The position numbers were made by a program, and so were the translations under genes. A stretch of DNA of 64,000 nt from Candidatus Aminicenantes bacterium (GTDB lineage Bacteria; Acidobacteriota; Aminicenantia; Aminicenantales; Saccharicenantaceae): contig CAVTOI010000002.1 in assembly GCA_963736255.1 (NCBI GenBank), positions 428,411-492,410 of the forward strand. The letters run 5' to 3'. This document shows, in pieces, positions 37,025 through 38,604 of the stretch. How positions within the stretch are numbered: the first letter of the stretch is position 1; every line of letters starts with the position of its first letter. The notes under the pieces were generated by a model. The model did not search any database, was not told the DNA's origin, and worked only from the letters and a program-made list of their open reading frames with translations.

Positions 37025-37960
37025 TCAGGCCGGGCGCCCCGCGAAGTACGTTCGCCCCCCGTGAACGACCTTGCGGACGCGGCGGCGGGCGAGGAGCGAG
37101 GCCAGGGCCTTGAGGACTTCGTCGCGGTGACGGCCGAGGGCCGCGGCGATATCGGCGGCCGTCTGAGGACGCCTGCCGACCGTGGCCAGGATGGCCGGCT
37201 CGAGGCCGCCGGAGGCCGGGGCCTGCTCTTTGTCGGCGAACGAGGCGACGATCTCCGTATTGGGGCCGAGCTGGGCCCTGATCTTGGCCAGGGCCGCGGC
37301 CCCGAGCGGCCTCGCCGAGCGCTCCGCGGGCGGGCGGACGACGGTGTTCAGCTCGATCCTGTCGGGGCGGATGCGGGCGACGGCGGCCTTGAGGGCCCGG
37401 ACGTCGGCCGGGGAGTCGTTGACCCCCCTGACGACCATGACCTCGAGCCGGAGCTCGCCCGAAAACTCGTCGCGGAAGCGGACGAGACCGTCGATGATCT
37501 TGCGATTGTCGAGCGAAGCGTGGGGCCGGTTGACGCGCCGGAAGGCGGCGGCCGTGACGGCATCGAGCGAAGGCACGACGATGTCGGCCGCGGCAAGGTC
37601 GCGCCGGACGTCCTTCCGGGTGAGGAGGGTCCCGTTGGTTAGCACCGCGACGGGGATGCGGGTCATCCGCTTGATGGCCCGGATGAGGCGGCCAATGTCC
37701 CGGCTGAGCGTGGGTTCGCCCGACCCCGAGAAGGTGATGACGTCGATCCGCTGCCCTGAGCCCACAGCCGCCTTGATCTGGGCCAGGATCTCTTCGGGGG
37801 GGAACCAGCTTCCCCGGCGGATCGTGGCCTTGCCGGCCGACCCGAGCTGGCAGTAGACGCAGTCGAGCGAGCAGGTCTTGAAGGGGATGATATCGACCCC
37901 CAGGGAGAAACCGAGCCGCCGCGAGGCGACCGGCCCATAGACGAAGCGGTGCCCGGCCAT
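37025..37960 (-). CDS. Radical SAM enzyme (COG0731-like Fe-S oxidoreductase type) with a C-terminal wHTH-like extension.
   Basis: GPVASRRLGFSLGVDIIPFKTCSLDCVYCQ carries the CxxxCxxC cluster motif. The stop/start overlap with the upstream small ORF is TGATG. Confidence 0.75.
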   Translation of the reverse strand: MAGHRFVYGPVASRRLGFSLGVDIIPFKTCSLDCVYCQLGSAGKATIRRGSWFPPEEILAQIKAAVGSGQRIDVITFSGSGEPTLSRDIGRLIRAIKRMTRIPVAVLTNGTLLTRKDVRRDLAAADIVVPSLDAVTAAAFRRVNRPHASLDNRKIIDGLVRFRDEFSGELRLEVMVVRGVNDSPADVRALKAAVARIRPDRIELNTVVRPPAERSARPLGAAALAKIRAQLGPNTEIVASFADKEQAPASGGLEPAILATVGRRPQTAADIAAALGRHRDEVLKALASLLARRRVRKVVHGGRTYFAGRPA

Positions 37961-38163
37961 CAGACCTTGTCCCTGTAGATCTCGATGAACCGGCGCAGTG
38001 ACCGGTCGTAGGTCCTCTCCACCGAATCGGGGAACAGGCAGGCCGGCAGCTCGCGGTTCCGCCAGTGGTAGGCCAGGCAGTCGCAGCAGACACCCTTCCG
38101 GCTGCAGGGTTCATAGCTGCAGTTGCAACGGGCCTTGTTCTTGGCGCTCTTGCATTCGCTCAT
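37960..38163 (-). CDS. Small Cys-rich protein (67 aa, 8 Cys), DUF6485-like, translationally coupled to the radical SAM gene.
   Basis: [44 protein letters not shown]...TYDRS. There is a TATAAT-like element about 70 nt upstream. Confidence 0.55.
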   Translation of the reverse strand: [67 protein letters not shown]

Positions 38164-38604
38164 CCGGCCTCACTCGTCCTTCGCTATATAAGGAATATAT
38201 ACCTTTATTTATACGATCCCTATTATACGGCTTCTCTTCCCTCTGGGAAATCATTGACCTTAGCCTGTCCACATCGCAGGCATCTGGGAGGCTGTATGGA
38301 GGCCACGGGCAACAGCGGCGAAGAAGACAGTCGAACCCGACATTGGGAAAGTTTAGCCGGGCAGCGTGACGGACGAGGGCAGTTTCAGGGGAAACCGCCA
38401 AAACGTGTCTGAGCGAGGCGTAGCGGACGCCGAGCGAGTTGTTTTGGCGCCAAGTCCGGCGCACTGAACGGCGTTTTCAAACTTTCCCAGGAGGGAGAGG
38501 CTGTCCTCGAGCCGCTCAGCGGGGCCTCCACACCAGGGCCGGCATTGCCGGACCTCAAGATTTCGGGTATCATAGCCCGCATCAAGCGCTTAGTGAGGAC
38601 ACCG

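What the first reader, a model, noticed from the sequence alone, without database searches (positions are those of the whole stretch)
37025..38240. Cys-rich 67-aa protein translationally coupled (TGATG) to a radical SAM enzyme, embedded in the preQ1 biosynthesis neighbourhood.
The small ORF [44 protein letters not shown]...TYDRS has eight cysteines in a pattern I associate with the uncharacterised DUF6485 family. Its stop overlaps the start of a COG0731-type radical SAM protein (CSLDCVYCQ) that carries a wHTH-like tail. A TATAAT element lies upstream of the pair. Two explanations fit: a small metal-binding or RiPP-like peptide acted on by the radical SAM enzyme, or a dedicated Fe-S/zinc partner. 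The pair lies between queF and the CheR/kinase genes and 2 kb from queCDE. A role in 7-deazapurine or tRNA modification is conceivable but speculative.
Basis: partly seen in the sequence, partly recalled or inferred. Interest (0 to 1): 0.6.

Follow-up and report, generated by a model that had tools for sequence, protein, structure and literature searches.

The report
Small cysteine-rich protein paired with radical-SAM enzyme
A highly conserved 67-residue, eight-cysteine protein of unknown function (DUF6485) is always encoded just upstream of one uncharacterised type of radical-SAM enzyme with a DNA-binding-like tail, in at least two bacterial phyla; the pair is real and unstudied, but what it does can only be inferred.

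Summary
On the minus strand, a 67-aa ORF (37960-38163) matches Pfam DUF6485. Its TGA overlaps the ATG of a 311-aa radical SAM (rSAM) gene (37025-37960), and a promoter-like site lies upstream.

The small protein is under purifying selection (dN/dS 0.06-0.38). Its eight Cys and one His are invariant across phyla, and it is never fused to another domain.

The rSAM has only the CX3CX2C cysteines. It is not TYW1, QueE, MoaA or a SPASM maturase. Its fold is closest to PFL-activase and NifB, and its tail is an ArsR-like winged helix.

The tailed ("long") rSAM type had DUF6485 upstream in every locus examined (about 48). The flank alternates between queF and NifU plus Fe-S-carrier genes.

The link is not universal:
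- 76 of 80 loci of the shorter rSAM relatives lack DUF6485.
- 36 of 80 DUF6485 loci lack the rSAM.

A RiPP precursor is unlikely. My best reading (about 0.4) is a metal or Fe-S-binding redox or cluster partner of the rSAM. A link to queuosine or tRNA modification is plausible but unproven. This is a moderately interesting lead.

The parts
37960..38163 (-). DUF6485 gene: 67-aa stand-alone protein with invariant C4, C13, C15, C20, C26, C27, C29, H33 and C42, and a conserved C-terminal patch (P45, V48, E49, T51, D53, R54, S55, F59)
   Evidence: ORF and translation. PF20095 scores 35.5 bits against a cut-off of 24. Invariant columns in 25 homologues from several phyla. dN/dS 0.06-0.38.
37025..37960 (-). 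Radical SAM gene, 311 aa, 'long type': N-terminal beta-hairpin motif YGPVxSRRLGxSLG, a single CX3CX2C cluster site, a partial TIM barrel, a linker and a winged-helix tail
37850..37873 (-). Codons for C30-x3-C34-x2-C37, the [4Fe-4S]/SAM site (CSLDCVYC)
   Evidence: Translation. The three Cys are invariant in the long-type and short-type alignments.
37028..37210 (-). C-terminal winged helix-turn-helix domain (residues about 251-311, pI 11.8), preceded by a low-confidence linker (residues 240-250)
37958..37962 (-). TGATG: the stop codon of DUF6485 overlaps the start codon of the rSAM by one base
   Evidence: Sequence. The same overlap is estimated from tblastn alignments in L001-L004 and L006, and gaps of -4 to 85 nt in most other long-type loci.
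38222..38249 (-). Sigma-70-like promoter candidate TTCCCA-16-TATAAT, in the AT-rich 381-bp divergent intergenic region shared with queF
   Evidence: 10 of 12 positions match. 2 sites were found against 0.2 expected in shuffles.
38545..39003 (+). queF (preQ1 synthase, type II), divergently transcribed. It is a recurrent but not universal neighbour of the pair.
   Evidence: PF14489 scores 92 bits. TIGR03139 scores 135 bits against 86.9. queF is adjacent in about 24 of 48 long-type loci.

Best explanation
DUF6485 and the winged-helix-tailed radical SAM protein form a conserved two-gene module, co-transcribed and in this genome translationally coupled.

In my reading, the 67-aa protein is a small metal-binding protein. 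Its eight invariant Cys and one His are enough for one or two Fe-S or Zn sites. It would serve the rSAM as a dedicated redox or cluster partner. The most likely role is delivering the electron that reduces the rSAM's only [4Fe-4S] cluster so that SAM can be cleaved, by analogy with Dph3/Kti11 acting on Dph1-Dph2 (this analogy comes from my own knowledge). Alternatively it holds a cluster at the active site.

The rSAM is a minimal, open-barrel enzyme like PFL-activase, which suggests a macromolecular substrate. The basic core and basic winged-helix tail of the long type point to a nucleic acid, possibly tRNA in the queuosine (7-deazaguanine) pathway.

Shown: the genes, their conservation, the obligate pairing within the long-type clade, the single cluster site, the fold and the neighbourhood pattern.

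Inferred: metal binding, physical interaction, electron transfer, and the substrate.
For: (1) Pairing. All long-type rSAM loci carry DUF6485 upstream on the same strand. This covers 40 loci found through DUF6485 (window included) and 8 of 8 loci found independently through the rSAM protein. The estimated gap is -4 to 85 nt in most.

(2) The pair stays together while its surroundings change. queF-flanked and NifU-flanked versions are interleaved on the rSAM tree, with at least 5 sister pairs that differ. In an Aerophobetes-like clade the order is queF-DUF6485-MinD/ParA-like ATPase-rSAM.

(3) Distant short-type members of the same rSAM family (28-39% identity) also lie 1-2 genes from DUF6485. 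This is seen in Zixibacteria, Ignavibacteria and Planctomycetes loci and in 4 metagenome loci.

(4) Neighbours are rich in Fe-S assembly, cluster-carrier and reductive-activation genes:
- NifU_N directly upstream;
- MinD/Fer4 ATPases and proteins resembling the MrpORP C-terminus;
- CGGC;
- thioredoxin;
- an AcsV-like reductive activase (654 bits);
- DUF2284, a 'metal-binding' family.

(5) In DUF6485, eight Cys and one His are invariant, it is never fused to another domain, and it is under purifying selection.

(7) Long-type proteins are basic (median pI 9.8), whereas short-type proteins have a median pI of 6.4.
Against: - No metal content, interaction or activity has been measured.
- The AF2 model of DUF6485 is poor (pLDDT 62). 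It has no structural or sequence match in the PDB.
- There is no Fer4, zf-CSL or other Pfam similarity even at E<=10.
- The rSAM family works without DUF6485 in most members. 76 of 80 short-type loci lack it within 5 kb, and those proteins have no extra conserved Cys. DUF6485 is therefore not a general catalytic subunit.
- DUF6485 shows the same invariant residues whether paired or not.
- DUF6485 is unpaired in 36 of 80 genome loci, 19 of which have at least 2.5 kb of sequence on both sides. It may therefore have another, rSAM-independent role.
- The 80 genome loci are the ones most similar to the window, so they over-represent Aminicenantes.
Confidence: 0.4

Rival explanations
1. DUF6485 is the rSAM's substrate. 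In this view it is a small protein or RiPP-like precursor that the enzyme modifies or activates, for example by a Cys-derived crosslink or a protein radical near the invariant R22-K23-G24-x-C-C. The winged-helix tail would act as a recognition element, like the RRE of RiPP maturases or like PFL-AE acting on GrcA/PFL.
For: - The genes are tightly coupled.
- The tail is present exactly in the clade where pairing is obligate.
- R22, K23 and G24 are invariant or nearly so.
- An MFS transporter lies between the rSAM and DUF6485 in the short-type arrangement.
Against: - The rSAM has no SPASM or twitch auxiliary-cluster cysteines (3 Cys in total).
- Peptide-maturase NCBIfam models score far below their cut-offs.
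- DUF6485 is conserved along its whole length at 60-94% identity across phyla, with no leader/core architecture.
- DUF6485 occurs without any nearby family rSAM in 36 of 80 loci, with identical invariant residues.
- The tail has an ArsR/MarR-type DNA-binding fold and is very basic.
- No protease gene recurs in the neighbourhoods.
Confidence: 0.12
2. The pair is a queuosine/7-deazaguanine or other tRNA-modification module. Here DUF6485 is mainly a zinc-stabilised adaptor rather than a redox protein. It would work with tRNA-modifying enzymes such as QueF, QueH, MnmG and the rSAM, and the rSAM would perform an undescribed radical step on tRNA or a 7-deazaguanine intermediate.
For: - queF is the immediate neighbour of DUF6485 in about half of the long-type loci. 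It is divergent in Aminicenantes and co-directional with a 3-nt gap in the Aerophobetes-like clade. That queF is a true TIGR03139 preQ1 synthase.
- queF adjacency recurs in interleaved branches of the rSAM tree.
- In Chloroflexi, queH lies next to DUF6485 (L061 and L079; about 1 kb away in L060).
- In other phyla the neighbours include mnmG, RNase PH and aaRS genes.
- queCDE lie 2 kb away in the window.
- The long-type rSAM and its winged-helix tail are basic.
Against: - The other half of the long-type loci have NifU instead of queF.
- No preQ1 riboswitch was found.
- queH is convergent with DUF6485, not co-transcribed.
- Outside the long-type clade the neighbours are very diverse. Among the 2 nearest ORFs on each side of DUF6485 in 41 such loci there are 170 Pfam families, and the most frequent one is seen only 6 times. 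One que hit among about 25 lineages could arise by chance.
- The rSAM is no closer to TYW1, QueE or queuine lyase than to other rSAMs.
- DUF6485 is only mildly basic (pI about 8.5).
Confidence: 0.18
3. The adjacency has no functional meaning. DUF6485 would be an independent small housekeeping metalloprotein that happens to sit upstream of this rSAM through inherited synteny in Acidobacteriota/Aminicenantes and relatives.
For: - DUF6485 has highly variable neighbours elsewhere.
- Its sequence is the same with or without the rSAM nearby.
- The wider rSAM family is mostly unlinked to it.
- In Saccharicenans-like loci 1-4 kb of other genes separate the two.
Against: - 48 of 48 long-type loci keep the pair on one strand, although the flanks are repeatedly rearranged.
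- The pairing is seen in two NCBI phyla with different gene orders.
- Distant short-type rSAMs of the same family are also near DUF6485 in other phyla, in the reverse order. All six Radical_SAM neighbours of DUF6485 outside the Aminicenantes-like loci belong to this one family.
- The stop and start codons overlap in the window.
Confidence: 0.12

Closest known systems
Dph3/Kti11 with the radical-SAM enzymes Dph1-Dph2 (and Elp3): a small Cys-rich metal-binding electron donor dedicated to an rSAM enzyme (from my own knowledge of the diphthamide and Elongator literature)
   Same: A small stand-alone Cys-rich protein is proposed to serve an rSAM enzyme that has only the SAM-binding cluster. It is linked to modification of translation components.
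   Different: There is no sequence similarity: no zf-CSL or any other Pfam hit at E<=10. DUF6485 has 8 Cys and 1 His rather than 4 Cys. It is bacterial. The interaction and redox role are untested here. This is an analogy, not membership.
Pyruvate formate-lyase activating enzyme (PFL-AE; PDB 3c8f)
   Different: Sequence identity is only 17%. TIGR02493 scores 28 bits against a cut-off of 232. The window protein has a family-specific N-terminal YGPVxSRRLGxSLG hairpin and a winged-helix tail. No glycyl-radical enzyme is nearby.
TYW1/Taw1 (4-demethylwyosine synthase), the source of the COG0731 'wyosine synthetase' label on homologues
   Same: It is an rSAM fold and a top Foldseek hit (2yx0, E 1.7e-9, TM 0.52). 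JGI transfers this name to close homologues.
   Different: TIGR03972 scores 27.5 bits against a cut-off of 318. No Wyosine_form domain was found. The window protein has only 3 Cys, whereas, to my knowledge, TYW1 has a second cluster. It is a bacterial protein in a lineage not known to make wyosine.
NifB, and ORP/Mrp-type metallocluster carriers
   Different: The rSAM has no K-cluster ligands (3 Cys) and no fused NifX-like domain. Sequence identity is 12%. These genes are absent from the 64-kb window.
rSAM peptide maturases with small conserved precursors (SCIFF, PqqA/PqqE/PqqD, mycofactocin)
   Same: A small Cys-rich ORF lies next to an rSAM gene, and a winged-helix-like domain could in principle recognise a peptide.
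   Different: There are no SPASM or twitch cysteines. Maturase models score far below their cut-offs. DUF6485 often occurs without the rSAM. The tail resembles ArsR/MarR DNA-binding domains.

Membership tests
DUF6485 (Pfam PF20095) | Score above the Pfam gathering threshold | tested here: met
   35.5 bits against 24, covering residues 8-65 of 67. Homologues score 31-44 bits.
DUF6485 (Pfam PF20095) | Conserved Cys/His pattern in a stand-alone protein of about 65 aa | tested here: met
   C4, C13, C15, C20, C26, C27, C29, H33 and C42 are invariant in 25 homologues. Each is at least 97% conserved in the 93 locus copies. The best 150 of the 390 representative clusters are all 50-156 aa, with no fusions.
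Radical SAM superfamily (PF04055) | HMM score above threshold, a CX3CX2C motif and a partial TIM-barrel fold | tested here: met
TYW1/Taw1 (COG0731 label) | NCBIfam TIGR03972 equivalog score of at least 317.95, plus a Wyosine_form domain | tested here: not met
   27.5 bits over a partial stretch. Radical_SAM is the only Pfam hit.
TYW1/Taw1 (COG0731 label) | Cysteines for a second, auxiliary Fe-S cluster | tested here: not met
   The protein has only three cysteines, all in the CX3CX2C motif.
QueE (7-carboxy-7-deazaguanine synthase) | Any QueE equivalog model above its cut-off | tested here: not met
MoaA (GTP 3',8-cyclase) | Equivalog score above the cut-off, plus C-terminal auxiliary-cluster cysteines | tested here: not met
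   TIGR02666 scores 60.2 bits against 284. There are no extra Cys.
SPASM/twitch rSAM peptide maturases (RiPP systems) | Auxiliary-cluster Cys motifs, and a precursor with a variable core that always accompanies the maturase | tested here: not met
   There are no extra conserved Cys in 54 short-type or 36 long-type proteins. Maturase models score 18-21 bits against cut-offs of 400-500. DUF6485 is conserved throughout and is unpaired in 36 of 80 loci.
Glycyl-radical activating enzymes (PFL-AE, NrdG) | Equivalog or subfamily score above the cut-off, with a glycyl-radical enzyme partner | tested here: not met
   TIGR02493 scores 28.2 against 231.75. TIGR02495 scores 27.1 against 131.15. PFL-AE is nevertheless the closest fold. 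No glycyl-radical enzyme appears among the neighbours.
Queuine lyase (rSAM preQ1 salvage enzyme; PDB 6p78) | Specific similarity beyond the generic rSAM fold | tested here: not met
Winged helix-turn-helix (ArsR/SmtB/MarR-like) domain, for the C-terminal tail | An alpha1-alpha2-alpha3-beta-beta topology that superposes on known winged-helix domains | tested here: met
Ferredoxin (Fer4) or CSL zinc finger (Dph3), for DUF6485 | A Pfam match or the characteristic CxxCxxCxxxCP or CSL motif | tested here: not met
   Six diverse DUF6485 proteins gave no Pfam family other than DUF6485 at E<=10. Neither motif is present in the sequence.

The most novel reading that the evidence does not exclude
The DUF6485-rSAM pair is a previously unrecognised two-component radical enzyme system. 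An eight-Cys mini-protein would carry the second metallocluster, or a protein-based radical, for a minimal PFL-activase-like rSAM. The ArsR-like winged helix would dock the enzyme on nucleic acid. Together they would carry out an undescribed step in 7-deazaguanine/queuosine or another tRNA or DNA modification in anaerobic, mostly uncultured phyla.
Probability: 0.15. Interest if true: 0.8.

Novelty: new variant of a known kind. Interest (0 to 1): 0.45.

Why it matters
Both proteins belong to families with no characterised member, no solved structure and no literature: 0 papers mention DUF6485 or COG0731 in the library.

If the small protein proves to be a dedicated redox or cluster partner, it would be a bacterial counterpart of Dph3-type rSAM helpers. 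It would also explain one of the most strongly conserved Cys-rich mini-proteins of anaerobes.

If the queF link is functional, it could point to a missing or alternative step in queuosine/7-deazaguanine metabolism in Aminicenantes and Aerophobetes.

On the practical side, the work shows that the 'wyosine synthetase' annotation on these bacterial genes is unsupported. It also shows that the 67-aa gene is sometimes missed or called on the wrong strand in public gene calls.

Tried and rejected
- RiPP precursor: rejected as the main reading. The evidence is whole-length conservation, no auxiliary-cluster Cys in the rSAM, and frequent unpaired occurrence.
- TYW1, QueE, MoaA, viperin, PFL-AE, NrdG and queuine lyase membership: all fail the score or feature tests.
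- preQ1 or other riboswitch upstream of the pair or of queF: none found at the gathering thresholds, or at E<=10 in 38100-38600.
- Sequence search of the PDB with the DUF6485 profile: only insignificant hits (eL37 at E 0.16).
- AF2 model of DUF6485: low confidence (pLDDT 62) and no Foldseek match.
- Domain fusions of DUF6485 that might hint at function: none among the best 150 of 390 representative clusters.
- Conserved operon partner of DUF6485 outside the long-type clade: none. There are 170 Pfam families among the 142 neighbouring ORFs scanned.
- Conserved neighbour of the short-type rSAM: none. Neighbours include dnaG, aminotransferases, glycosyltransferases and LD-carboxypeptidase.
- Extra cysteines in rSAM relatives that lack DUF6485, which would have suggested a cis/trans swap of an auxiliary cluster: none.
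- A sequence signature separating paired from unpaired DUF6485: none.
- Phage copies of DUF6485: none.
- Literature searches (DUF6485, COG0731, DUF2284, queuine lyase, and queF with radical SAM): nothing on this pair.
- The afdb50 fold library was unavailable.
- Not possible with these tools: complex (multimer) prediction, and whole-genome phyletic profiles for genomes where DUF6485 is unpaired.
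Full report
**1. What is in the window**

On the minus strand, ORF 37960..38163 encodes a 67-aa protein with eight cysteines. ORF 37025..37960 encodes a 311-aa protein. The TGA of the first shares one base with the ATG of the second (TGATG, 37958-37962).

The small protein matches Pfam DUF6485 (PF20095) at 35.5 bits, above the cut-off of 24. 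The large one matches Radical_SAM (PF04055) at 68.5 bits.

A sigma-70-like site, TTCCCA-16-TATAAT, lies on the minus strand at 38249..38222. Two such sites were found in the region, against 0.2 expected from shuffles. It sits in a 381-bp AT-rich spacer shared with the divergent queF gene (38545-39003). That gene scores 135 bits against TIGR03139, whose cut-off is 86.9.

An EamA transporter gene and queE, queD and queC follow at 39243-42062. A CheR-PAS gene and a hybrid kinase gene lie downstream of the rSAM.

The closest relatives of both proteins (90-95% identity) are from Candidatus Aminicenantes MAGs.

**2. The small protein is a real, strongly constrained protein**

- A search of the 5.8-billion-protein database gave 755 homologues. 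Those listed are almost all 63-100 aa and 55-94% identical, including proteins named from Clostridiales, Dehalococcoidia and Chloroflexi.
- C4, C13, C15, C20, C26, C27, C29, H33 and C42 are invariant. So is a non-Cys C-terminal patch: P45, V48, E49, T51, D53, R54, S55 and F59.
- An exhaustive profile search of 1.84 billion representatives found only 390 clusters. The best 150 are all 50-156 aa, so the domain is never fused to anything.
- Pairwise dN/dS between the window gene and other full-length copies is 0.06-0.38, with a median of 0.22 over 99 pairs.
- It has no sequence match in the PDB and no other Pfam similarity at E<=10. Its AF2 model is poor (pLDDT 62) and has no structural neighbour.
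- No paper in the library mentions DUF6485.

**3. The radical SAM protein**

- It has exactly three cysteines, all in the CX3CX2C motif.
- No NCBIfam model comes near its cut-off. MoaA scores 60 against 284, TYW1 27.5 against 318, QueE 31.7 against 260, and PFL-AE 28 against 232. The 'wyosine synthetase' (COG0731) name carried by homologues is therefore not supported.
- The family is defined by an N-terminal hairpin motif, YGPVxSRRLGxSLG, placed before the cluster motif, and by ITFSGxGEP.
- The AF2 model (pLDDT 83.9) shows a partial TIM barrel, a disordered linker (residues 240-250) and an H-H-H-beta-beta tail.

**4. Two forms of the rSAM family**

- 'Long-type' proteins are about 304-330 aa, carry the winged-helix tail and are 48-95% identical to the window protein. 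They occur in Aminicenantes/Acidobacteriota and in a 304-aa clade that includes a Candidatus Aerophobetes protein.
- 'Short-type' proteins are about 255 aa, have no tail and are 28-39% identical. They are widespread in sediment, gut and rumen metagenomes.
- Both types conserve only three Cys.
- Long-type proteins are basic (median pI 9.8, in both core and tail). Short-type proteins are not (median pI 6.4).

**5. Co-occurrence, starting from DUF6485**

I examined the 80 loci most similar to the window.

- 44 of the 80 contain a member of this rSAM family. 36 do not, and 19 of those 36 have at least 2.5 kb of sequence on both sides.
- The loci without the rSAM are labelled Dehalococcoidia, Chloroflexi, Planctomycetes, Omnitrophota, WOR-3, Spirochaetes or Hadesarchaea, among others.
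- Among the two nearest ORFs on each side of DUF6485 in 41 loci outside the Aminicenantes-like synteny group, 170 Pfam families appear, and the most frequent is seen only 6 times. That family is Radical_SAM, and all six belong to this same rSAM family.
- Other recurring neighbours include QueH (convergent, in Chloroflexi), MnmG, RNase PH, aaRS genes, ACPS, MFS transporters and metallo-beta-lactamases.

**6. Co-occurrence, starting from the rSAM**

- Eight long-type loci were fetched independently through seven rSAM proteins. All eight carry DUF6485 on the same strand, either directly upstream or one gene away. In three of them the public gene calls had missed it or placed it on the wrong strand.
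- Together with the window and the genome loci, about 48 of 48 long-type loci have the pair. The estimated gap is -4 to 85 nt in most. It is 0.85-4 kb in the Saccharicenans-like loci and in the Aerophobetes-like loci.
- Of 80 short-type loci from metagenomes, only 4 have DUF6485 within 5 kb. These four, together with Zixibacteria and Ignavibacteria genome loci, share the order rSAM - MFS or MBL - DUF6485 - DUF2284.
It is met for the wider family.

**7. Three arrangements of the long-type module**

- (a) queF, divergent, then DUF6485-rSAM, with or without DUF6125 downstream. The window has this arrangement.
- (b) NifU_N-DUF6485-rSAM-DUF6125-methyltransferase-IlvE. This is preceded by metallo-beta-lactamase, MinD/Fer4 ATPases, Nitro_FeMo-Co-domain proteins that resemble the MrpORP C-terminus, CGGC and DUF4405.
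- (c) queF-DUF6485-MinD/ParA-like ATPase-rSAM, all co-directional. In L161 this is followed by thioredoxin and an AcsV-like corrinoid reductive activase (654 bits).

On a neighbour-joining tree of the rSAM proteins, arrangements (a) and (b) are interleaved, and at least five sister pairs differ. The tree has no support values. The flank has therefore switched repeatedly while the DUF6485-rSAM core stayed intact. The complete chromosomes in the set each contributed one locus, so this does not look like two paralogous copies per genome.

None of the NifU, DUF6125, ParA or ORP-like genes is present in the 64-kb window.

**8. Interpretation**

The constancy of the pair through repeated rearrangement argues for a functional unit rather than inherited synteny. 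So do its presence in two phyla and the independent proximity of distant family members to DUF6485.

A RiPP-type relationship is unlikely, for three reasons:
- the rSAM has no auxiliary-cluster cysteines;
- DUF6485 is conserved throughout, with no leader/core split;
- DUF6485 has identical invariant residues whether paired or not.

The neighbourhoods are enriched in Fe-S scaffold and carrier proteins and in reductive-activation proteins. Together with the nine invariant potential metal ligands, this favours a small metalloprotein that acts as redox or cluster partner to a single-cluster rSAM. This is analogous to Dph3/Kti11 (my own knowledge), not homologous to it.

The family functions without DUF6485 in most short-type members. 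DUF6485 is therefore an accessory specific to the long-type clade, or a more general small redox protein with several clients. It is not a universal catalytic subunit.

The minimal PFL-AE-like barrel, the basic surface and the ArsR-like tail of the long type suggest a macromolecular, probably nucleic-acid, substrate.

The recurrent queF adjacency, in two orientations, and the queH adjacency in Chloroflexi make a queuosine or tRNA role plausible. However, the equally frequent NifU flank, the absence of a preQ1 riboswitch and the diversity of contexts elsewhere keep this reading speculative.

**9. Caveats**

- The 80 genome loci are the ones closest to the window, so they over-represent Aminicenantes.
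- Genes in the fetched loci were called with a simple longest-ORF heuristic. It sometimes picked antisense ORFs in GC-rich DNA, so key counts rest on tblastn or hmmsearch instead.
- Gap sizes are estimated from tblastn alignments.
- I could not test whether genomes with an unpaired DUF6485 carry the rSAM elsewhere.
- I could not run complex prediction.

**10. Verdict**

This is a genuine, conserved and uncharacterised two-gene module. The find is moderately interesting as a lead for radical-SAM and queuosine specialists, but nothing yet shows an unusual mechanism.

Noticed in passing
window 24739-24903 (-): A cobalamin riboswitch aptamer scoring 90.5 bits (gathering score 31.5). It is the only Rfam family above its threshold in the window.
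   Followed up: no
window 30589-36913 (-): A CheR-PAS fusion gene (1123 aa) and a hybrid histidine kinase/response-regulator gene (1005 aa) lie between the rSAM and ilvE (29438-30403) and a TrmO-like gene (28986-29429). In the 90-94% identical relative L001, ilvE follows the rSAM directly. This looks like a recent insertion of about 6.5 kb of signalling genes into the syntenic block.
   Followed up: partly
L164:4785-4985, L166:3785-3985, L167:3780-3980: The 67-aa DUF6485 gene is absent from the public gene calls of L164 and L166 and is called on the opposite strand in L167. hmmsearch on six-frame translations finds it at E of about 1e-42. This small gene is under-annotated.
   Followed up: yes
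L162:392-4214, L164:1-3815, L168:1-3152: Upstream of the NifU-flanked version of the module lies an ORP-like gene set: MinD/ParA ATPases with ferredoxin inserts, Nitro_FeMo-Co-domain proteins that match the C-terminus of the Fe-S carrier MrpORP, CGGC, DUF4405 and a metallo-beta-lactamase.
   Followed up: partly
L014:7118-7630 and about 27 other long-type loci: DUF6125 (170 aa, with a weak ATC_hydrolase resemblance) is a frequent third member directly downstream of DUF6485-rSAM. It is missing from the window and its nearest relatives.
   Followed up: partly
L054:6341-6868, L064:6281-6802, L077:4907-5443, L081:6361-6951: In the short-type arrangement, DUF6485 is followed by DUF2284, a 'predicted metal-binding protein'. 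That domain also occurs in the selenoproteins MbdU and ArsM-DUF2284 according to NCBIfam.
   Followed up: no
L061:6233-6763 (-), L079:6213-6734 (-), L060:5971-6507 (-): In Chloroflexi/Dehalococcoidia MAGs the epoxyqueuosine reductase gene queH, with an MFS gene behind it, lies next to DUF6485 in convergent orientation (L061, L079), or about 1 kb downstream (L060).
   Followed up: partly
window 42152-43012 (+): A 286-aa ORF divergent from queC has no Pfam match at E<=0.01.
   Followed up: no
window 40894-41604 (-): The mechanical queD ORF is 236 aa, but the PTPS domain covers only residues 126-234. The first 120 or so residues overlap queC and are Arg/Pro-rich, so the true start is probably internal, near MSWTLKV.
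   Followed up: no
protein P0050 (81 aa): One DUF6485 homologue carries an internal 16-residue duplication of the CC-x-C/H segment (KGVCCDCITYHWRMGE twice).
   Followed up: no
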